Below, piece after piece: positions 13,849 to 62,184 of a DNA stretch of 64,000 nucleotides (the first letter of the stretch is position 1; the number at the start of each line of letters is the position of its first letter). The notes below the pieces were generated by a model that saw only the letters and a program-made list of their open reading frames with translations, was not told the DNA's origin and searched no databases. The stretch is from IMG/VR virus record IMGVR_UViG_3300049033_000018, positions 83,638-147,637 of that record. The stretch is one strand, 5' to 3'. The stretch is from a virus. Both the position numbers and the translations under genes were made by a program.

Positions 13849-14283
13849 TTATATTAATTTTAAAGCTTCCAATAAACCTGTTTCTAAAGCTTCTTCGTAG
13901 GTTTTATAAGATGTATAGTTATATTTTCTTTCCCAAGGTTTCCCTATTCTGTCTTCTTGTACAGGGTTTACAATATTAATTTCATATTTAAATTCTCCTG
14001 CTGTTGAATTACTAACATATACACGAAGTTTTTTCACTTCTCTTAACCATTTTTGTAAGAAAGATTGAGTTGGTTGAGTACATTCAATATCTGGATTTTT
14101 AAATTCTTCTGAATCTGTATCATATAAATGAACTTTATCATTAATATTCCACTTCTTCATTTGCATATATCCTGATAAATTGCTAGATTTTCCTTCGGTA
14201 TTAAATGTTTTTCTACAGAATTCATTGAATCCTTTTGCTTTAGCTAGTTTAGCTGTTTCAAATGTTACAAACTGTTCTTCCAT
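13849..14283 (-). CDS. Conserved hypothetical Bacteroidetes-phage protein
   Basis: VTFETAKLAK.KGF...PTQS.LQKWLRE...TYEEALE pattern. Confidence 0.7.
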   Translation of the reverse strand: MEEQFVTFETAKLAKAKGFNEFCRKTFNTEGKSSNLSGYMQMKKWNINDKVHLYDTDSEEFKNPDIECTQPTQSFLQKWLREVKKLRVYVSNSTAGEFKYEINIVNPVQEDRIGKPWERKYNYTSYKTYEEALETGLLEALKLI

Positions 14284-14759
14284 TATTCATAATTTCTGGT
14301 TAAACTATCACAGTATTCATTCCATTTATTACCATCATGACCACGAACCCATTCAACTTTAATGTTAACATTTCTTAGTTTATGAATTTCTAGCCACAAT
14401 TCCAAGTTTTCCACCTTCTTATTAGTAGAAGTTTTCCAACCTTTTCTCTCCCAACCTTTACACCACTCATTATATCCTTTTGAGCAATATTGAGAATCAG
14501 TAAAGATTGTCACTTGAGTAAATTTATCTTTTGTTGTTGATTCATTCTCTAATACAGAGAGTGCATAAAATAAACCGTTTTTTAGAGCCGTTAACTCCAT
14601 GATATTATTTGTTGTTTCTTTATCACTCCCCCATTTTTCAGAATAAACTTCATCATCTTTTACTACAACCATAGCCCAGCCCCCATCTCTGGTAGACATT
14701 TGGCAGCTTCCATCTGTATATATTTCCATATTCAAAAAATGGGGATTAATTACCCCCAT
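14283..14759 (-). CDS. rnhA: Ribonuclease HI
   Basis: IYTDGSC, TTNNIMEL, TDSQY, WVRGH, NEYCD; true start probably the MEIYTD ATG. Confidence 0.92.
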   Translation of the reverse strand: MGVINPHFLNMEIYTDGSCQMSTRDGGWAMVVVKDDEVYSEKWGSDKETTNNIMELTALKNGLFYALSVLENESTTKDKFTQVTIFTDSQYCSKGYNEWCKGWERKGWKTSTNKKVENLELWLEIHKLRNVNIKVEWVRGHDGNKWNEYCDSLTRNYE

Positions 14760-28072: not shown

Positions 28073-29254
28073 TTAAAACCCTCTTCTAAATGTTAATAAA
28101 ATATTTTTTGCATACTCAACATCAATCATTTCTGGTAAATTAACTGTTTCATAGTTACCATGAATCTCACTGACAAGCTTTTCAGCATCTTTCATAAGCT
28201 CTTCATAAGGATATTTACCTTCTTTTATGTCTCTAAGAAACTGAACATTCTCTGTTCTAACAATAATTCCTTTTCCTAATGAAACATTTAAAGCCATCTC
28301 TAATAATCTGAACAAATGAGACATATTTTTTAAGTCAACTCCTTGTCCTGCCTTTTGATTTAAATCAAATCTAGCCTCATTTCTATTCTTTACCCACTCC
28401 CAGTATGCTTTATGTTGCTTACAGTGTACCTCAAATCCATCTAGGTTATAATATAGGGTATATACTTCTTTCCTTAATTCAATATTTGTTTTAGGGATAG
28501 AAGAAAGTCTTAGCTGAGTGGATTTACTATCTTTAATAAGACCTGCAAAGTTATCCCCATCCAACTCATTTAAATATAATGCATATAGACCTTTACCATT
28601 CTCTACTTTTACTAATCCCCAGTTATTATGGTTTAAATACTGTTCTTCAAGACTCCCATGATAAGAAATATATGTATCATACCAATCCAAGAAAGGAATT
28701 GATTTTGCTCCATCAACAATGTAACAATAATGCAAAATTGAATTTCTCTCCTCTGGCTGTCTATTATTCATGTTCTTATTAAGTCCTGTAGCTTTCTTTA
28801 TCTGAGACTTAGCATATCCTAGAATTGAATTTTCAGTGAGTTTTGTAACCCATTTTTCCTGACTTTCAAATACTTTCATTGAATCATCTTTAAATATAAC
28901 ACATTCTTCAGGAATATCCAAAGTTTCAAGAATAGTAGGATTATTTTTTACAAGTAACTCAATGTAATTTTGAATCTCGTACCCTACAATATCACCAGTT
29001 CCTGAGACATCAATATAAGGAATGTAATTAGGCTTAGCTACTTGTTCAGAAAGACTTTTAAGAATCTCTACTGTTGGTTGTTGATAAACAAATGTAATAT
29101 CAACATCTGATTTGTCTGTAGCTGTTCCATACATATGACTCCCTCTTACATAAGCTAGCAAAATTTTAATATTGTGTTGCTTTTCTATGAAAGGAATTGA
29201 AGCTCCAAATTTATTCTTTTCTAATTTAAATTCATGTGTCTTTAGATTTGCCAT
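28073..29254 (-). CDS. Nucleotidyltransferase (YcgL / T4 NrdC.11-like)
   Basis: RGSHMYGT....SDVD, NPTILE, GYAKSQ, KNMSHLFRLL. Confidence 0.8.
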   Translation of the reverse strand: MANLKTHEFKLEKNKFGASIPFIEKQHNIKILLAYVRGSHMYGTATDKSDVDITFVYQQPTVEILKSLSEQVAKPNYIPYIDVSGTGDIVGYEIQNYIELLVKNNPTILETLDIPEECVIFKDDSMKVFESQEKWVTKLTENSILGYAKSQIKKATGLNKNMNNRQPEERNSILHYCYIVDGAKSIPFLDWYDTYISYHGSLEEQYLNHNNWGLVKVENGKGLYALYLNELDGDNFAGLIKDSKSTQLRLSSIPKTNIELRKEVYTLYYNLDGFEVHCKQHKAYWEWVKNRNEARFDLNQKAGQGVDLKNMSHLFRLLEMALNVSLGKGIIVRTENVQFLRDIKEGKYPYEELMKDAEKLVSEIHGNYETVNLPEMIDVEYAKNILLTFRRGF

Positions 29255-34330: not shown

Positions 34331-34438
34331 TTATGTAGAGGGGACTCGAACCCCTGACCTGACTGTTACACCCCTATAAAGAGGTTGGTTTTCCAAACCA
34401 TTATTGGCAATCTGCTCTACCCACTGAGCTACTACACA
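34331..34438 (-). ncRNA. tRNA-like RNA with a 42-nt branched insert in place of the anticodon loop
   Basis: Acceptor TGTGTAG/CTACATA, D arm GCTC-AGTGGGTA-GAGC, stem GATTG/CAGTC, T arm AGGGG-TTCGAGT-CCCCT. Confidence 0.8.
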
Positions 34439-36321: not shown

Positions 36322-36380
36322 TGCAAATATACTAAAAAAATATGAGACTCACAAGGAGTCTCAAGTTAAAGTTATGTTAA
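36322..36380 (-). promoter_or_regulatory. Promoter with TTAAC box and overlapping terminator hairpin
   Basis: TATATTTG at 36324-36331; TGAGACTC/GAGTCTCA hairpin; GTTAA at 36365 and 36376. Confidence 0.75.
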
Positions 36381-37660
36381 TTTTCTGTCTCAATATCTGA
36401 AATACCTGCTTCCAACTGTTTAGATTCACCTTCAATGAACTTTGGTGATTTCAGCTTGAATATCTCATCCGTATCTCTCAATCTGATACAAACCCCTTCA
36501 TCAACTTTACAGTCTGGATAAGATTTATCTAAGTACTGGGTCTTTAGATAATCTAACAATTGGTCTTGCATTGTAACATCTCCCACAGTGAATGGAGGTA
36601 CAACTTCTCTGACTTTACCAACGAAATACTCATCTACATATTTCAATCCATATTTCTCACAGTATCTCTTAACTGCCTCCCATGAAAGCTCATGTACATT
36701 CCCATCTTCATTTGTAAAAGTGATTCTGTAAATAAATATTTCATAATCAAACCCATAAGTATAGTCAGCACCCTGAACTCCATTTCCTACAATCTCTCCA
36801 TAAAGGGTAATTCCTTTCTCCACATTGTCTTTGTGCATCTCATAGGCTCTTCTCCAAATATCATTTGAATAATAACTAGGAGTATGAGATTTCCATCCAA
36901 CTTGGTCAGCCTCTACACCTTTTGGTAGTCTTGACTTAGGTTTTCCAGAAGAATAAATAAAGCCATATTGGGTCTTTTTCTGAGGGATAAATCTATCAAT
37001 CAACCTCTCAAACCAGTTTAGTTTTTTATTGACTAGAACATGTGCTAAAATCAGTGATGAACCATGATATTTTCTAGTTACAATAAATTGAGTTCCAGAA
37101 TTGAATTTCTCTAGGTTTCTAGCAAAATGAGCTGTGTCTGAGTGGAATCTGAATTGATTATCAATGATAACATCTTTTAATTTATTTTGCTTAGGTGTTT
37201 TCTCACCCTTAGGTAATCCTGATTGTCTTACAGGAACCTCATACTTTTGACAAATCATTACCTCATCAATGTGAGTAAATGTGTCCCCTTCTTTAAGGTC
37301 TCCTTCCTCAATTGGTAAAGAAGTAAGAGGTAGTAACATTCCATCTGAAACAGTTCCTCTTAATTTTAAGGCTTTAACCAATCTTCTTTTAGCAGAAAGA
37401 TACCCTTTTTGAGTGGTATCTTTGTTTAAAGCTGGGTCATCATAGAGATTACTATCATGACAAATAGCCTCAGAGATTTGAGTTCCTGCTACAAAGTATA
37501 GCATTAAATCCCCTTCCTGTACTGCTTTGGAAACAATCACGTTGTTCCCAAGTAATACAACTCTTTGAATTTTATCAGCTCCCTCGATTGCATGAGGTTT
37601 TCCAATCCTGACAACTGTACAAGGATAATTTGATGAATTTTCGTCTATTGTTAATTTCAT
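36377..37660 (-). CDS. RNA ligase (Rnl2/DRB0094-like, N-terminal OB-fold)
   Basis: IEGADKI..., KLRG.VSDG (OB); motif I TRKYHGSS, GEIVG, EGVC, FKLKS. Confidence 0.85.
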   Translation of the reverse strand: MKLTIDENSSNYPCTVVRIGKPHAIEGADKIQRVVLLGNNVIVSKAVQEGDLMLYFVAGTQISEAICHDSNLYDDPALNKDTTQKGYLSAKRRLVKALKLRGTVSDGMLLPLTSLPIEEGDLKEGDTFTHIDEVMICQKYEVPVRQSGLPKGEKTPKQNKLKDVIIDNQFRFHSDTAHFARNLEKFNSGTQFIVTRKYHGSSLILAHVLVNKKLNWFERLIDRFIPQKKTQYGFIYSSGKPKSRLPKGVEADQVGWKSHTPSYYSNDIWRRAYEMHKDNVEKGITLYGEIVGNGVQGADYTYGFDYEIFIYRITFTNEDGNVHELSWEAVKRYCEKYGLKYVDEYFVGKVREVVPPFTVGDVTMQDQLLDYLKTQYLDKSYPDCKVDEGVCIRLRDTDEIFKLKSPKFIEGESKQLEAGISDIETEN

Positions 37661-50700: not shown

Positions 50701-51372
50701 ATCCAAATAATAGTTATTATCTGTAGTATTAAACCATACGCCCACAAATGCATTGGATACACTTTGTAATACATCTGCATTTTGATTAACATACTGAGCC
50801 AATTTTGCCTCTGTAAATTCGTGAATATTTAAAACTACCTCTCTACCTGAAAAGGCTACCATAAACCCATTATTTGGGTTAATTTCGTACTGATTAAAGC
50901 TAACGCCTCCGTTTTGTTGTGCTAATTGAAAAGCCTCAATAATTGTATTTTGTAACATAATAATTTATTTTAAAATTTATAACCCTCTTTTGTCGTATTC
51001 TTTCTCTATTAAAGAAATTTCTTTCTTTGTAGTATTAAGAATCTTTTTTGTATTCTCACTACTTACATGTAAATATGTTCTCTCAATTAAATTTTTAATC
51101 TCATGCATTAAACAATTTAATTCTGATAACTCATTATTAGATAAATTTTTCATAATAATATACTATAAAAGTGAATATTCGTATTGAAATTGGCTAACTG
51201 TTTTAATTACCCTTTTCTTTTTTGTTGGGTAAATATTAAACGGTTTAATTCCTGCATTCTCTAAAATCTGCATTGCATGTTCTTTGCTATTTGCAGTTAA
51301 AAAATGGTCTTGACCTCCATAAATAAGAGTATAAACAAATTTGATTGATTGTTTCATAATATTTATTTTTTG

Positions 51373-58227: not shown

Positions 58228-58745
58228 TTATAAAAACCATTACTCTATAAGAGCAATGGTAATATTGTTTTCTTTAATTATTTTTAGTGAACCTTTAAAC
58301 TGAAGACTGCCTTTAGTATGACTATTGTCTGGGGTCTCCTTAGTTGTAAAACCTACCTTAGAATCCAAATGGTCTACATAGTAAGTATTACCTTTACATT
58401 TCACTACCCAAGCTGGGACACTCTTGTCTTCGTTATGCTTCTTGTTGAAGTGGAAAACTATTCTGGAACTATTACAAATTGATTCCATATTTTTCTACTA
58501 ACTGAGTTACATAGGATTCTGAAATCTCTTTGTGTTTTGTTACCTGTCTTGGAATCTCTTTGATAACTGCATAAGCTTGGAACAGATGTCTTAACTCATA
58601 TTTGTTATCAAGTATTACTTGAGAGGGTGAAGATACGGTTCTTGTACCTTGGAAAGATTGTTTTCTCTGAGGTTTAACAATTCTTTGTTCCTCTGATAAT
58701 CTTTTTATTTCTTGTCTGATTGCTTCAAATTTTTTCATGATAATT

Positions 58746-59102
58746 TTAATTTAATGTTAATGATAGGTTTTTAAATAATTGTTTGTGTTGTTCTCTTGAA
58801 ATTGCTTCTACAGCCACTGCTGTCATTTGGTTTCCAATATCAGGTTCCAGGAATTTGTGATACTTAATTTTTAAGTCATCCAATCTGTGGATTATCCTTT
58901 GTATTTTGGACTCCGAAGCTTCAAGACAACACAGGTAATTACTACCCATCTGCCATTGCTTAAACTCATGTTCAAAATTAGCTGCAAAATCAGCTAAGGC
59001 ATGTACACTTTGTACACACTTGTAACCTGGAGTTAAATCATCTCTGGTGATGATTGTCATAAACTCGTTACCTGTCTAAATGTTAATTAAATCTTTTTTC
59101 AT
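58746..59102 (-). CDS. Peptidyl-tRNA hydrolase type 2-like protein with in-frame TAG at codon 9 (59076-59078)
   Basis: IITRDDLTPG...QSVHA...FLEPDIGNQMTAVA is Pth2-like. The upstream in-frame ATG 59102 gives MKKDLINI*TGNEF-MTII; the downstream ATG 59060 is the alternative start. Confidence 0.7.
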
Positions 59103-59107
59103 AATAA

Positions 59108-59269
59108 TTAAATTAATGATTTTAAAGTTTCTATTTCTTTTTTGATTCTTTTGGTGTCTGATTCAGTAAGAGGAATCTGATTGCCAGAGTTTCCTTTTTC
59201 TGTTTTAACTCCACTCTTTAATTGAGACTGCAATCTTTCAAGAGCTGTCTTTCTTCTTAATAGCTTCAT
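59108..59269 (-). CDS. Small basic hypothetical protein (53 aa)
   Basis: MKLLRRKTALERLQSQLKSG...LKSLI*; stop is 5 nt before ATG 59102. Confidence 0.6.
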   Translation of the reverse strand: MKLLRRKTALERLQSQLKSGVKTEKGNSGNQIPLTESDTKRIKKEIETLKSLI

Positions 59270-59403
59270 AGTATAAAATTTTTTAATTAAAATAATACAA
59301 GCCTCCCCTCAAACTCTCTTACTCTATGGGAGGGCGACAATATTGTGCAGGTCGAAGAGTTATCCACCCAACACTATGCTCCACCGCTAAGTGCATTGTA
59401 TTG

Positions 59404-59474
59404 TCATTCCAGTGGGATTCGAACCCACGCACACAGTTTTAGAGACTGCCGTTCTACCACTGAACTATGGAACG
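59404..59474 (-). tRNA. Amber suppressor tRNA (anticodon CTA)
   Basis: CGTTCCA/TGGAATG, GTTC-AGTGGTA-GAAC, GCAGT-CT-CTA-AA-ACTGT, GTGGG-TTCGAAT-CCCAC. Confidence 0.88.
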
Positions 59475-59599: not shown

Positions 59600-59665
59600 G
59601 CTTCATATCAGGATTCGAACCTATCTTCCCTTACTGGGCGTGCTAACCATTACACTAAAATGAAA
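59600..59665 (-). pseudogene. Degenerate tRNA / tRNA-like RNA with shortened anticodon arm
   Basis: D arm GTGT-AATGGTTA-GCAC, mini arm CCC-AGTAA-GGG, AGG-TTCGAAT-CCT. Confidence 0.6.
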
Positions 59666-59837: not shown

Positions 59838-60423
59838 CAAGCTACAGGTCTTGTTAACTGATACTCCACACCAAGTGCCCCAGTCAAGGCTAGAGGAATC
59901 GAACCTCATTTGCTTTTTTCCAAATAAAAATGTTTTAACTTTGTATTTGCTGTATGTAGCTTTATCAAATTACTTTTGTTTTTTCAAATACCAATTTTGA
60001 TTTTTTTAGTTTGCTGTAAGTAATTTTATCAGAATAGTTTTAGGAATTGAACCTTATTAATCGTTTATGAGACAATTTTTTAACCAAATTTCTTTGCTGT
60101 TACTATTCTTATCAAGTTTCATTTTTTGTTTTTACGTTGCTCTACCCACTGAGCTACTCCCAAAGATTTCTAGATTTAACTTTGTTTGGGAGGAAGGATT
60201 CGAACCCCCGACACACGGCTTTCAATGCTTAACTTTATACTTGCTGTATGAAACTTTTTATATTCAGGTTACTGTTGAGGTCTTTAAGTCTCCTCATTAC
60301 TTCTCTAGACAATTTAACTTCTCACTAGAATACGAAGTTGTAGATATGGCTTTGCGTTTGCATTCTACGTTACGTTAATGTTTATCCTGTAATTGTTTTT
60401 TTGTGTTTGCTGAAAGTAACCTT
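59838..60423 (-). ncRNA. Tandem array of five Y-RNA-like units (stem-CAGCAA-payload-stem-GA)
   Basis: Units at 60265-60423, 60113-60257, 60030-60110, 59966-60027 and 59838-59963; each has a distinct, perfectly complementary 8-9 bp closing stem with CAGCAA starting at position 11. Confidence 0.8.
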
Positions 60424-60498: not shown

Positions 60499-62184
60499 TT
60501 AAAGAACTTCTACTCTTTGAATTAGCTCTTGAGACAACGCCTCTCTGACTAATTCATCTGCTGTTTTAATCTTACCTGAAAGGAAAGAAACAATGGCAGC
60601 AGAATAACCACTAAAGTAATATACATTACTTACATCTCCATGAGTCTCGAATTTTGTAGATGTACTACCATAATAACCGTTAGGAATATTCCAAAGTACA
60701 ATTACAAAGTTATTAACATAGTCTTGAGAAAATCCTGCATTTCTTAAAGAACTCAAAGCAGTTTCAACATTAGTTTTACCTAATTGACCTGGATTAAATT
60801 CTCCATCGGAAATACATAAGATGCCAGTTGGGAACTCATCTTCACTGATTCCTTTTGATTTCAGTTCACAGAATAGTTTGATAACTGACTGGAAGTTTGT
60901 GCTTCCATAAGCTTCAGACCTATCATTTTTCCACTTATCAACAGGAGTCTGACCTACCCATTGGTGCATTCTTGCTGTATCATTAAATTCAATCCAAGAG
61001 TTGGCGAACCTTCCTTGTAAGAATTCAGAAAAATACAAAGCTAATGCTTTACCAATATTGTAAGAACTCATGTTGGTTCCTTTAGCTTCAGAAGTCATTG
61101 AAGAAGAGGTATCTCTTACAACAATTAAACTTGAAATTCCAGAATCCCCAGCCTTTCCTACAAGTGTAGTAAATTGCTTGTTGATAGTTTCCTCTTGAGC
61201 CTTTGAAATCTGTGCAGATTCAAATTTTCTATTTATGTTCAAAGGTGAGAATAACTCATGAACAAAACCAGTATACTTAACATCTTTGGTTTCTGGTGAA
61301 GTAATCCAAGCTGCATACCTGTCAGATAATTTTTGATTGAACAAAAATTTAGACTGAACTAATTTAGATAGAGCTCTACCATGAATTTTACCAAAGTCGA
61401 TAACATCAAACTTTCTTTGAGAGATAAGTTTTTGCCATTCGTGAGCAGTACCAGAAGTTTTTAATTTTCTGTATTGCTTGTAAGTAGAACCAGTTGATTC
61501 TCCTTTATTACCATAAAGTAATGAACAAACCCATTTAGCAATCATGTTGTCAGCCTGAGCTTCTACTGTTTTACAAACAGAGTTTGATTTAATTTGTGGT
61601 AAATATTTTTTAACTAACTCAGAAGAGTTTGAGTTTTCTAATCCTGAAAGAACTAGGTCTCCAAACTTTTTCCAGTTAAGTTGTCTACCTTCCCAACCGT
61701 GATGAACAAGGTCGTAAGAAAGCATTGTGAAAATATCTTTCCAACTACCAGCAGAGATTAGTAATCCTACGTTAGCCCAGAAAGTTTTTTCGTCTTTGAA
61801 ATACAACCAAAGGAATCTCATGATACCTTCATGTCTAAGCTCTCCACCTTTTTGAGGTCCTTGAGTCTTAGTACCATCAAGATACATTGTTTCTCTGGAA
61901 ATCATTCTCACAAAAATTGAGAATGCTACAGTATCCCACTTGTCAGAACCCCAAAGTAATTCAGAGTCTTGTGCGATTGCCTTGAAACTTCTAGGAGCTT
62001 TATATTCACCTAAAGAACCAAACTGGTCAACTAAAGCACTACCAGTAGTAGAATACTTTAAAGCACCGTTTGCTGATTTAGTTTCTGCTCCTTTCTTTAA
62101 AGCTGCATCAACGAATGCAGATGTTGTGTTGTTAACTGTTTTTGCAGGTACTGCAAATAAAGTTTTTTTCTTGCTGTCAAACAT
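60499..62184 (-). CDS. DUF2828/DUF7788-type protein (Ro60/TROVE-like helical domain + VWA)
   Basis: NGA..YSTTG..LVDQF, GSWKD, AKW, MIDAS DTSSSM, GSTNF, ISDGEFN, IVLWN, SGYS. Confidence 0.8.
   Translation of the reverse strand: MFDSKKKTLFAVPAKTVNNTTSAFVDAALKKGAETKSANGALKYSTTGSALVDQFGSLGEYKAPRSFKAIAQDSELLWGSDKWDTVAFSIFVRMISRETMYLDGTKTQGPQKGGELRHEGIMRFLWLYFKDEKTFWANVGLLISAGSWKDIFTMLSYDLVHHGWEGRQLNWKKFGDLVLSGLENSNSSELVKKYLPQIKSNSVCKTVEAQADNMIAKWVCSLLYGNKGESTGSTYKQYRKLKTSGTAHEWQKLISQRKFDVIDFGKIHGRALSKLVQSKFLFNQKLSDRYAAWITSPETKDVKYTGFVHELFSPLNINRKFESAQISKAQEETINKQFTTLVGKAGDSGISSLIVVRDTSSSMTSEAKGTNMSSYNIGKALALYFSEFLQGRFANSWIEFNDTARMHQWVGQTPVDKWKNDRSEAYGSTNFQSVIKLFCELKSKGISEDEFPTGILCISDGEFNPGQLGKTNVETALSSLRNAGFSQDYVNNFVIVLWNIPNGYYGSTSTKFETHGDVSNVYYFSGYSAAIVSFLSGKIKTADELVREALSQELIQRVEVL

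What the first reader, a model, noticed from the sequence alone, without database searches (positions are those of the whole stretch)
58746..59474. Amber suppressor tRNA paired with a peptidyl-tRNA hydrolase gene interrupted by an in-frame TAG
Seen: a well-formed tRNA with anticodon loop CT-CTA-AA at 59404-59474. About 300 nt downstream on the same strand, ATG 59102 opens MKKDLINI-TAG-TGNEF-MTIITRDDL..., in frame with the Pth2-like domain. ATG 59102 sits 5 nt after the previous gene's TAA and has A at -3, as expected for Bacteroidetes starts. The ORF-track ATG at 59060 has T at -3. Other genes in the window read intact in the standard code and rarely end in TAG. Inference: Pth synthesis depends on UAG readthrough. 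This would be a gene-specific switch sensing suppressor tRNA charge or RF1 activity, loosely analogous to prfB autoregulation, rather than whole-genome recoding.
Basis: partly seen in the sequence, partly recalled or inferred. Interest (0 to 1): 0.85.

Follow-up and report, generated by a model that had tools for sequence, protein, structure and literature searches.

The report
Suppressor-tRNA-gated phage Pth2-like gene
A large phage that otherwise uses the normal genetic code carries its own UAG-reading tRNA and puts a UAG stop at codon 9 of a small tRNA-hydrolase-like gene; about sixty distinct related phage sequences keep this lock-and-key pairing, so the enzyme is probably made only when that tRNA overrides the stop.

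Summary
There is a well-formed tRNA(CUA) at 59403-59474(-). ATG 59102 opens MKKDLINI-TAG-TGNEF-M..., in frame with a Pth2-fold domain.

In this one genome the pattern is no rarer than chance. The comparative evidence decides it:
- 60 of 61 non-redundant homologous IMG/VR upstream sequences have ATG, 1-9 codons, then TAG (never TAA or TGA) before the domain.
- 51 of 61 have no start codon after the TAG.
- The base after the TAG is a purine in 60 of 61.
- About 70 of 86 fetched loci have a same-strand tRNA(CUA) within 2 kb.
- In the nearest relative, Met-59060 is replaced by Leu, and GNEF is kept by four synonymous changes.
- A start-context matrix scores ATG 59102 at +8.7 and ATG 59060 at -4.3.

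The 157-kb genome is otherwise standard code, and this is its only clear gated gene. Two other small families (an 82-aa beta protein and an HD-like protein) carry the same M-K-TAG start in other phages. The cultured phages RAS14 and XacN1 start an HD-Pth2 fusion with SD-ATG-AAG-TAG. The XacN1 paper reported that it could find no target for its CUA tRNAs.

Nothing here is experimental, and the purpose of the gate is inferred. This scan has noted the same motif on other DNA (254 notes). I found no paper describing it.

The parts
59403..59474 (-). tRNA with anticodon CUA (amber suppressor, the 'key'). Loop CU-CUA-AA, A73, short variable arm, no encoded CCA.
   Evidence: ARAGORN. Rfam RF00005 at 69.4 bits, model positions 1-71. 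Not a recent copy of any of the other 22 tRNAs in the genome.
59108..59269 (-). 53-aa ORF between the tRNA and the gated gene. It is specific to this lineage; in relatives L001/L002 the tRNA ends about 20 nt before the leader ATG.
   Evidence: ORF list. Absent from L001/L002. No Pfam or PHROG match.
59079..59102 (-). Leader: ATG 59102 plus 7 codons (MKKDLINI). This is the likely true start of the Pth2-like gene.
   Evidence: Start-context matrix score +8.7, the 91st percentile of this genome's starts, against -4.3 for ATG 59060. An upstream in-frame ATG is conserved in the family.
59076..59078 (-). In-frame TAG at codon 9 (the 'lock'), followed by A.
   Evidence: Sequence. TAG is the first upstream in-frame stop in 60 of 61 non-redundant homolog sequences. 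The next base is A in 44, G in 16, C in 1 and T in 0.
58746..59075 (-). Body of the Pth2-like protein: TGNEF, then the 104-aa domain, ending in TAA at 58746-58748. ATG 59060 lies inside it and could serve as a weak bypass start.
   Evidence: Pfam PTH2 E=0.0019. Family profile against archaeal Pth2 2zv3, E=4.7e-10. AlphaFold2 pLDDT 94.7. Foldseek top hits are Pth2 and Bit1, TM 0.75-0.80. GNEF is kept by four synonymous changes in L001.
58472..58738 (-). 88-aa gene of unknown function that travels with the Pth2-like gene.
   Evidence: A homolog lies next to the Pth2-like gene in 23 of 59 non-redundant loci. No Pfam or PHROG match.
58240..58488 (-). 82-aa all-beta protein of unknown function, also linked to the module. 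It is not gated here, but it starts M-K/S-TAG-I in six other loci.
   Evidence: Present in 17 of 59 loci; gated in L018, L042, L054, L056, L080 and L083. AlphaFold2 pLDDT 80. No clear PDB match.
58236..58260 (-). Terminator-like hairpin with a T-run, placed at the end of the three-gene unit.
   Evidence: Pattern scan: 11-bp stem followed by TTTTAT.

Best explanation
This is a two-part translational gate. The phage encodes an amber-suppressor tRNA(CUA). Translation of its Pth2-like (peptidyl/aminoacyl-tRNA ester hydrolase fold) gene starts at ATG 59102 and meets UAG at codon 9. Without the tRNA, RF1 releases an 8-residue peptide. When the phage tRNA is made, processed, CCA-tailed and charged by a host synthetase, it reads UAG-A and the full protein is produced.

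Shown by sequence comparison: the gate is ancestral and conserved across the family, it sits in a good suppression context, it usually has no alternative start, and it is linked to a CUA tRNA.

Inferred: the tRNA works, and readthrough is what limits expression.

Most likely purpose (inferred, low certainty): to tie a small tRNA-end maintenance set to the presence of working phage tRNA. That set is the Pth2-like protein and, in other phages, an HD-like protein and an 82-aa protein. The tie could be a delay or AND gate. Alternatively it could be a feedback loop that limits suppressor activity. The inserted amino acid is unresolved; Lys, Gln and Trp are candidates.
For: - The tRNA is real and canonical.
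- Family conservation: 85 of 86 fetched loci, and 60 of 61 non-redundant upstream sequences, have ATG, 1-9 codons, then TAG before the domain. The stop is never TAA or TGA. The baseline for first in-frame upstream stops in this genome is 18% TAG. These sequences form 11 clusters at 60% identity.
- 51 of 61 have no ATG, GTG or TTG between the TAG and the domain.
- The base after the TAG is a purine in 60 of 61, against 39% for real stops in this genome.
- In L001 the 59060 Met is Leu (CTA), and GNEF is kept by GGT/GGA, AAC/AAT, GAG/GAA and TTT/TTC.
- Start-context matrix: 59102 scores +8.7 and 59060 scores -4.3. It is the only one of 14 such coincidences where the upstream ATG clearly scores better.
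- A same-strand tRNA(CUA) lies within 2 kb in about 70 of 86 loci.
- None of 58 family genes ends in TAG.
- The same M-K-TAG-(I/T) start occurs on two unrelated families, the 82-aa protein and the HD-like protein.
- Cultured phages RAS14 and XacN1 have a Shine-Dalgarno motif 7-9 nt before ATG-AAG-TAG-ACC, with conserved coding sequence running on past the TAG. Both have CUA tRNAs (PMC5852040).
- The genome is otherwise standard code.
- The fold is Pth2.
Against: - There are no expression, proteomic or charging data.
- In this window an in-frame ATG (59060) lies five codons after the TAG. The same holds in relative L002 and in about 10 of 61 family members (ATG, GTG or TTG). Some suppressor-independent synthesis is therefore possible.
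- In Mycobacterium cluster C phages (Cane17, Myrna) the Shine-Dalgarno motif sits 1 nt before NTG-TAG and 7 nt before the following GTG. That spacing favours the post-TAG start there.
- 14 ordinary genes of this phage end in TAG, and their contexts are not clearly adapted to a strong suppressor. Suppression must therefore be modest, or its cost tolerated.
- The codon after the TAG is ATT in 29 of 61, and ATT is a rare start codon.
- The window protein alone is below Pfam's PTH2 cut-off.
Confidence: 0.78

Rival explanations
1. Ordinary gene starting at ATG 59060. The upstream ATG...TAG is a short leader ORF or plain spacer with no readthrough, and the tRNA(CUA) serves some other purpose.
For: ATG 59060 exists, and the Pfam domain match begins at it. 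Similar ATG-stop-ATG coincidences occur by chance in this genome. In mycobacteriophages the Shine-Dalgarno spacing favours the GTG after the TAG.
Against: ATG 59060 has the context of an internal ATG, scoring -4.3, the 3rd percentile of real starts. The homologous codon is Leu in L001 and in most of the family, and 51 of 61 have no start after the TAG. The GNEF codons upstream of 59060 show only synonymous change. This reading does not explain why the stop is always TAG, always in frame, followed by a purine, and linked to a CUA tRNA.
Confidence: 0.1
2. Termination-reinitiation. Ribosomes translate the mini-ORF, terminate at TAG and restart at the next codon, or a nearby near-cognate codon such as ATT or ATA, without any suppressor.
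For: The codon after the TAG is ATT in 29 and ATA in 5 of 61. ATT is a known rare bacterial start (infC; from established knowledge). 'NTG TAG GTG' in mycobacteriophages looks like a start-stop followed by a start.
Against: At least 25 of 61 have GTA, GTT, ACA, AAC or other non-start codons after the TAG, including this window (ACA) and L001 (GTT). Reinitiation does not require the same reading frame, a TAG in place of the far commoner TAA, or a CUA tRNA nearby. All three hold here.
Confidence: 0.06
3. Genome-wide or late-gene TAG reassignment (code 15), as in recoded crAss-like and Lak phages. The Pth2-like TAG would be just one of many recoded codons.
For: The phage is AT-rich (32% GC), favours TAA stops, and carries a suppressor tRNA. 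That fits the proposed path to recoding (Borges et al. preprint). Lak phages carry a homolog.
Against: Standard-code ORFs of 100 aa or more cover 88% of the genome, and reading TAG as sense adds only 1%. ORF boundaries in the window are unchanged apart from trivial upstream extensions. 14 genes end in TAG. No other gene shows a convincing in-frame TAG.
Confidence: 0.03
4. Sequencing error or decaying pseudogene.
For: This is a single metagenome-assembled record.
Against: The TAG sits at the same place in independent assemblies from many samples and in cultured, finished phage genomes. The downstream domain is intact, conserved, and folds with pLDDT 94.7.
Confidence: 0.01

Closest known systems
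Stop-codon-recoded phages with phage-encoded suppressor tRNAs (TAG read as Gln, 'code 15'; Borges et al. preprint 10.1101/2021.08.26.457843; Peters et al. 2022, PMC9523058)
   Same: A phage-encoded tRNA(CUA) decodes in-frame UAG in phage genes inside a standard-code host. The genome is AT-rich and favours TAA stops.
   Different: Here the genome is standard code, and one small gene (elsewhere two or three small families) carries a single TAG, always within the first ~10 codons. That looks like a switch and not a changed code. The preprint does not contain the word hydrolase.
prfB (RF2) autoregulation through an early in-frame UGA
   Same: An early in-frame stop makes synthesis of a translation-related protein depend on competition between a release factor and another decoding event.
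   Different: prfB needs a +1 frameshift and senses its own product. Here the frame is unchanged, the competitor is a dedicated tRNA, and the product is not a release factor. Any feedback on the tRNA is only a hypothesis.
Archaeal/eukaryotic peptidyl-tRNA hydrolase 2 (Pth2, PF01981; human PTRH2/Bit1)
   Same: Same fold (TM 0.75-0.80) and a full-length profile match.
   Different: This is a shortened phage clade with the invariant motif F-x-E-P-D-I-G-N-Q-x-T-A. Its activity and substrate are untested. The single window sequence is below Pfam's cut-off.
Orphan CUA suppressor tRNAs of jumbo phage XacN1 (Yoshikawa et al. 2018, PMC5852040)
   Same: A standard-code phage with CUA tRNAs. XacN1 ORF364 is a homolog (an HD-Pth2 fusion).
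   Different: That study read through the 18 annotated amber stops and found no target. The target proposed here lies upstream of an annotated start: ATG-AAG-TAG in front of ORF364.
Lambda bar minigenes and host Pth (from established knowledge)
   Same: Two- or three-codon ORFs (ATG-NNN-stop) functionally tied to peptidyl-tRNA hydrolase. Very short peptidyl-tRNAs are prone to drop-off at a slowly decoded stop.
   Different: bar minigenes are free-standing and toxic in Pth-deficient hosts. Here the mini-ORF is in frame with, and apparently continuous with, the hydrolase gene.

Membership tests
Pth2 (PF01981) peptidyl-tRNA hydrolase family | Sequence match to the family model above the curated threshold | tested here: inconclusive
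   The window protein scores 18.8 bits against a cut-off of 23, E=0.0019, over profile positions 3-114 of 115. A 54-sequence family profile matches solved Pth2 chains 2zv3, 24bt, 1rzw, 1wn2 and 1q7s, with E from 4.7e-10 to 1.4e-5.
Pth2 (PF01981) peptidyl-tRNA hydrolase family | Pth2 alpha/beta fold | tested here: met
   AlphaFold2 model pLDDT 94.7, pTM 0.88. The top 13 Foldseek hits are all Pth2 or Bit1, TM 0.65-0.80, probability 1.00.
Pth2 (PF01981) peptidyl-tRNA hydrolase family | Catalytic acidic residue of the D-A-G-x-T-Q segment, and ester-hydrolase activity | tested here: inconclusive
   In the HMMER alignment to 2zv3, the invariant E77-P78-D79 of the phage family lies over the R-D-A-G segment. 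An acidic residue is therefore present, but the register is uncertain. Activity cannot be tested with these tools.
Code-15 (TAG-recoded) phage | Many genes interrupted by in-frame TAG, and low coding density under the standard code | tested here: not met
   88% ORF coverage under the standard code against 89% with TAG read through. 14 genes end in TAG. Only one convincing in-frame TAG.
Code-15 (TAG-recoded) phage | Phage-encoded tRNA(CUA) | tested here: met
Pyrrolysine system (ARAGORN's label 'tRNA-Pyl') | PylS-type synthetase, and the atypical tRNA-Pyl shape | tested here: not met
   No PF01409 domain in the phage genome. The tRNA fits the general tRNA model end to end at 69.4 bits with a normal cloverleaf. 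ARAGORN's label reflects the anticodon only. The host genome was not available.
prfB-type autoregulatory recoding | An in-frame stop bypassed by +1 frameshifting, in the gene of the factor that reads that stop | tested here: not met
   The leader and the domain are in the same frame in all 61 sequences. The product has the Pth2 fold, not a release-factor fold, and no RF-1 domain is present in the genome.

The most novel reading that the evidence does not exclude
The tRNA(CUA) and the early-TAG genes form a self-contained, phage-borne circuit that has spread across phages of very different size and base composition. UAG is the one codon only phage tRNA can read, so a small set of tRNA-end maintenance proteins (Pth2-like, HD-like, the 82-aa protein) is made only once phage tRNAs are functional. 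The Pth2-like enzyme may in turn act on the suppressor's own acylated form, making a prfB-like homeostat for UAG suppression. This would give the 'orphan' suppressor tRNAs of standard-code phages such as XacN1 and Mycobacterium cluster C their first concrete targets. It could also mark the seed from which full TAG recoding evolved.
Probability: 0.3. Interest if true: 0.9.

Novelty: new variant of a known kind. Interest (0 to 1): 0.8.

Why it matters
Suppressor tRNAs in standard-code phages have lacked known targets. The XacN1 study says so explicitly (PMC5852040). A conserved early TAG in a tRNA-hydrolase-like gene gives them a testable target.

It also shows that gene callers systematically truncate or miss these genes. 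Many database entries for the family begin inside the domain.

If confirmed, it would be a natural orthogonal tRNA/codon switch. It would also be a plausible first step toward phage stop-codon reassignment. Cultured carriers exist (RAS14, XacN1, Mycobacterium cluster C phages), so the idea can be tested directly at the bench.

Tried and rejected
- tRNA identity. Pairwise comparison with the other 22 tRNAs of the genome gave no clear parent; the best were 76% (Leu-UAA) and 74% (Phe). The family mostly shares A73, G1:C72 and the loop CUCUAAA. The anticodon arm resembles tRNA-Trp, but the phage's own tRNA-Trp has G73. The amino acid is left undecided.
- Adaptation of real TAG stops. A T follows 9 of 14 TAG stops against 83 of 166 TAA stops, and back-up stop distances are similar. 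There is no clear signal.
- Other gated genes in this genome. Four further ATG-x-TAG-x-ATG coincidences have the better start context on the downstream ATG. One (14283-14759) is ambiguous.
- Phage-encoded RF-1 domain, GlnRS/GluRS-type or PylS-type synthetase domain: none found.
- Genome-contig scan. It returned one partial, weak hit (Dialister MAG), which was not informative.
- 82-aa and 88-aa partner proteins. There was no Pfam, PHROG or PDB-sequence match. Foldseek gave E > 0.5, VIA-align gave Z < 4 (weak OB-like rows only), and Atlas scores were below 0.9.
- RNA structure between the tRNA and the 53-aa ORF: z = -1.3, not notable.
- Literature. Six full-text searches found no description of a TAG-gated Pth2-like gene.
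- Lak-B7 homolog. It has ATG-AAT-ATC-TAA-ATA with a tRNA(UUA) 500 nt upstream. This may be an ochre version, but an ATG follows four codons later, so it is left open.

Full report
WHAT IS IN THE WINDOW

The window is bases 83638-147637 of a 157,140-bp IMG/VR phage record with 32% GC. Earlier notes of this scan call it crAss-like; I did not test that. Almost all window genes lie on the minus strand.

ARAGORN finds a tRNA with anticodon CTA at 59403-59474(-). Rfam's tRNA model matches it end to end at 69.4 bits. Its loop is CU-CUA-AA, the discriminator is A, the variable arm is short, and no CCA is encoded.

Downstream on the same strand lies a 53-aa ORF (59269-59108, ending in TAA). Five bases later comes ATG 59102, then AAA AAA GAT TTA ATT AAC ATT, TAG (59078-59076), ACA GGT AAC GAG TTT, and ATG 59060. 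The 104-aa ORF then runs to 58746.

IS THE GENOME RECODED?

No.
- Standard-code ORFs of 100 aa or more cover 88% of the genome. Reading TAG as sense adds 1%.
- In the window, the TAG=Q ORF list differs from the standard list only by trivial upstream extensions.
- Of 197 ORF-genes, 166 end in TAA, 17 in TGA and 14 in TAG.
- The phage encodes 23 tRNAs. It has no RF-1 domain, no GlnRS/GluRS-type domain and no PylS-type domain. A host synthetase would have to charge the tRNA.

IS THE PATTERN MORE THAN CHANCE?

Within this genome alone it is not. 'ATG, up to 12 codons, stop, up to 12 codons, ATG-gene' occurs 8 times with TAA, 5 times with TAG and once with TGA. Two further lines of evidence make it significant.

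First, start context. The phage's genes lack Shine-Dalgarno motifs (10 of 197) and have A-rich positions at -12, -11 and -3. A matrix trained on its gene starts gives ATG 59102 a score of +8.7, the 91st percentile of real starts. ATG 59060 scores -4.3, the 3rd percentile, typical of internal ATGs. Among the 14 coincidences, this is the only gene where the upstream ATG clearly scores better.

Second, relatives. The two closest phages are L001 and L002 (88% and 87% protein identity, 160-kb contigs). Both have the tRNA(CUA) about 20 nt before an ATG, then 9 or 6 codons, TAG, (V/T)GNEF and the domain. Three details stand out:
- The leader peptides differ (MKKDLINI, MKKGDELVG, MTKTGI) but the TAG is kept.
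- In L001 the codon matching ATG 59060 is CTA (Leu), so no start follows the TAG.
- GNEF is preserved through four synonymous changes: GGT/GGA, AAC/AAT, GAG/GAA and TTT/TTC.
The stretch between the TAG and codon 59060 is therefore under protein-level selection.

THE FAMILY

A degenerate-pattern scan of IMG/VR confirmed 136 loci and returned 80 of them. They come from contigs of 5-508 kb with 23-56% GC.
- In 85 of the 86 fetched loci, the first in-frame stop upstream of the domain is TAG, never TAA or TGA. In all but two of the 61 non-redundant sequences an ATG lies 1-9 codons before it. The typical start is M-K-TAG-(I/V)-x-x-K-L-x-V-I-T-R-x-D-L.
- Among the 61 non-redundant upstream sequences, 51 have no ATG, GTG or TTG between the TAG and the domain.
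- The base after the TAG is A in 44, G in 16, C in 1 and T in 0. Real stops in this genome are followed by a purine in 39% of cases. A purine after UAG is the context classically best for suppression (established knowledge).
- The sequences form 11 clusters at 60% identity. The baseline frequency of TAG as the first upstream stop is 18%.
- None of 58 family genes terminates in TAG. One, L015, has a second internal TAG.
- A tRNA(CUA) lies on the same strand within 2 kb in about 70 of 86 loci. It is either 50-200 nt upstream or 0.8-1.8 kb downstream.
- The single locus without a TAG (L052) has an ordinary ATG start. The tRNA next to it has an aberrant 8-nt loop, CCUCUAAC.
- A profile search of 1.84 billion cluster representatives finds 1,991 clusters at E of 1e-10 or better. 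Many gene calls begin at profile positions 5-19, which is what gene callers would produce if they stopped at the TAG.

WHAT THE PROTEIN IS

The window sequence alone is just below Pfam's PTH2 threshold. A 54-sequence profile matches solved archaeal Pth2 and human Bit1 over the full length, with E down to 4.7e-10. The AlphaFold2 model (pLDDT 94.7) superposes on Pth2 structures at TM 0.75-0.80. It is a Pth2-fold protein with the invariant motif F-x-E-P-D-I-G-N-Q-x-T-A. Its activity and substrate are untested.

COMPANIONS AND FURTHER GATED GENES

Two small genes follow it in the window. The 88-aa gene (58472-58738) has homologs beside the Pth2-like gene in 23 of 59 loci. The 82-aa gene (58240-58488) does so in 17 of 59. 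A terminator-like hairpin follows at 58260-58236.

In six loci the 82-aa gene itself begins M-K/S-TAG-I.

A third family, a 189-aa HD-like protein, begins M-K-TAG-I-T-L in L039 and L079. It is 50% identical (E=8e-45) to the N-terminal domain fused to the Pth2-like domain in the cultured Stenotrophomonas phage RAS14. Xanthomonas phage XacN1 ORF364 has the same N-terminal extension, judged by eye from the translation.

In RAS14 and XacN1 a Shine-Dalgarno motif (AGGAA or GAGGA) sits 7-9 nt before ATG-AAG-TAG-ACC. Conserved coding sequence (Q-T-x-G-Q-x-I-L-Q-H-G-L-S-V) continues between the TAG and the annotated starts.

RAS14 has a tRNA(CUA) in its tRNA cluster. The XacN1 paper reports two per terminal repeat. 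[quoted passage not shown] The early-TAG start of ORF364 is such a target. It was missed because it lies upstream of an annotated start, not after an annotated stop.

CAVEATS

- Everything here is computational.
- In Mycobacterium cluster C phages the layout is SD-c-(A/G)TG-TAG-GTG with a tRNA(CUA) 130-250 nt downstream. The Shine-Dalgarno spacing favours the GTG after the TAG, so the gate may be bypassed or vestigial there.
- In this window ATG 59060 could also give some ungated product.
- The phage's own 14 TAG-terminated genes show no clear adaptation to a suppressor. This argues for modest suppression.
- The amino acid inserted cannot be decided from sequence.

MECHANISM AND PURPOSE

Best supported (about 0.78): initiation at 59102, followed by competition at UAG-A between host RF1 and the phage tRNA(CUA). 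Full-length Pth2-like protein is made only on suppression.

The purpose is inferred. Because only phage tRNA can read UAG, the gate reports that phage tRNAs are expressed, processed and charged. It would couple a small tRNA-end maintenance set (Pth2-like, HD-like, 82-aa) to that state. A feedback loop in which the hydrolase acts on the acylated suppressor is an attractive but untested variant.

The window also holds an RNA ligase, an RlaP-type nucleotidyltransferase and a Ro60-like protein. This fits a phage that invests in RNA and tRNA maintenance.

NOVELTY

Six full-text searches found no description of this arrangement. The main recoding preprint does not mention a hydrolase. This scan has noted the same motif on other genomes: 254 notes in at least 186 genomes. 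Those notes are unreviewed AI output and are not counted as evidence here.

I class the finding as a new variant of a known kind. Nonsense suppression by phage tRNAs is known. A conserved, gene-specific early-stop gate paired with its own tRNA is not.

Noticed in passing
window 34331-34438 (-): A tRNA-model match (45.6 bits) spanning 108 nt, with about 35 extra bases in the anticodon arm. It could be an intron-containing or otherwise interrupted tRNA. ARAGORN did not call it.
   Followed up: partly
window 59601-59664 (-): A weak, short tRNA-like match (31.5 bits, 64 nt) between tRNA-Glu and tRNA(CUA). A similar element sits at the same place in relative L002. It may belong to the Y-RNA-like array reported by other notes on this genome.
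   Followed up: no
window 60110-60236 (-) and 60499-62184 (-): A YrlA (Y RNA-like) match below threshold (35.5 bits against 69), next to a 561-aa protein that matches PHROG 850 'RNA-binding protein' and DUF7788. This looks like a phage Ro60-like protein with partner RNAs. Earlier notes already cover it.
   Followed up: no
window 36377-37660 (-) and 28073-29254 (-): RNA-repair-type genes: an RNA ligase (PF09414 with a PHA02142 OB domain) and an RlaP 'RNA repair pathway' nucleotidyltransferase (PF10127).
   Followed up: no
window 58240-58488 (-); L018, L042, L054, L056, L080, L083: The 82-aa all-beta protein family next to the Pth2-like gene is not gated in the window. In six other phage loci it starts M-K/S-TAG-I, making it a second family with the same early-TAG start. 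No known fold or family was found.
   Followed up: partly
L079:6141-6716, L039:5364-, L087 (RAS14) 1941-2800, L088 (XacN1) 1941-2800: An HD-like protein family also starts M-K-TAG. In the cultured jumbo phages RAS14 and XacN1 it is fused to the Pth2-like domain. There the annotated starts lie 4-21 codons downstream of an SD-ATG-AAG-TAG start.
   Followed up: partly
L093 (Prevotella phage Lak-B7) 3904-3920 and 3347-3419: The Lak phage homolog is preceded by ATG-AAT-ATC-TAA-ATA in frame, with a tRNA(UUA) about 500 nt upstream. This may be an ochre counterpart of the gate, but an in-frame ATG follows four codons later.
   Followed up: partly
L094:1500-1573 (contig of L052): L052 is the only family member without the early TAG. 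Just downstream of its gene lies a tRNA with an 8-nt anticodon loop, CCUCUAAC.
   Followed up: partly
L029:1709-2449: A Pth2-like N-terminus (M-T-TAG-INHKLIIITRRDL...) runs straight into an HNH/NUMOD3 homing-endonuclease ORF, and a second Pth2-like copy follows. This is probably a mobile-element insertion into the gated gene.
   Followed up: no
window 50977-51357 (-): Two small ORFs (64 aa and about 57 aa) are separated only by an in-frame TAG followed by T. Readthrough would fuse them. This was not distinguished from chance.
   Followed up: no
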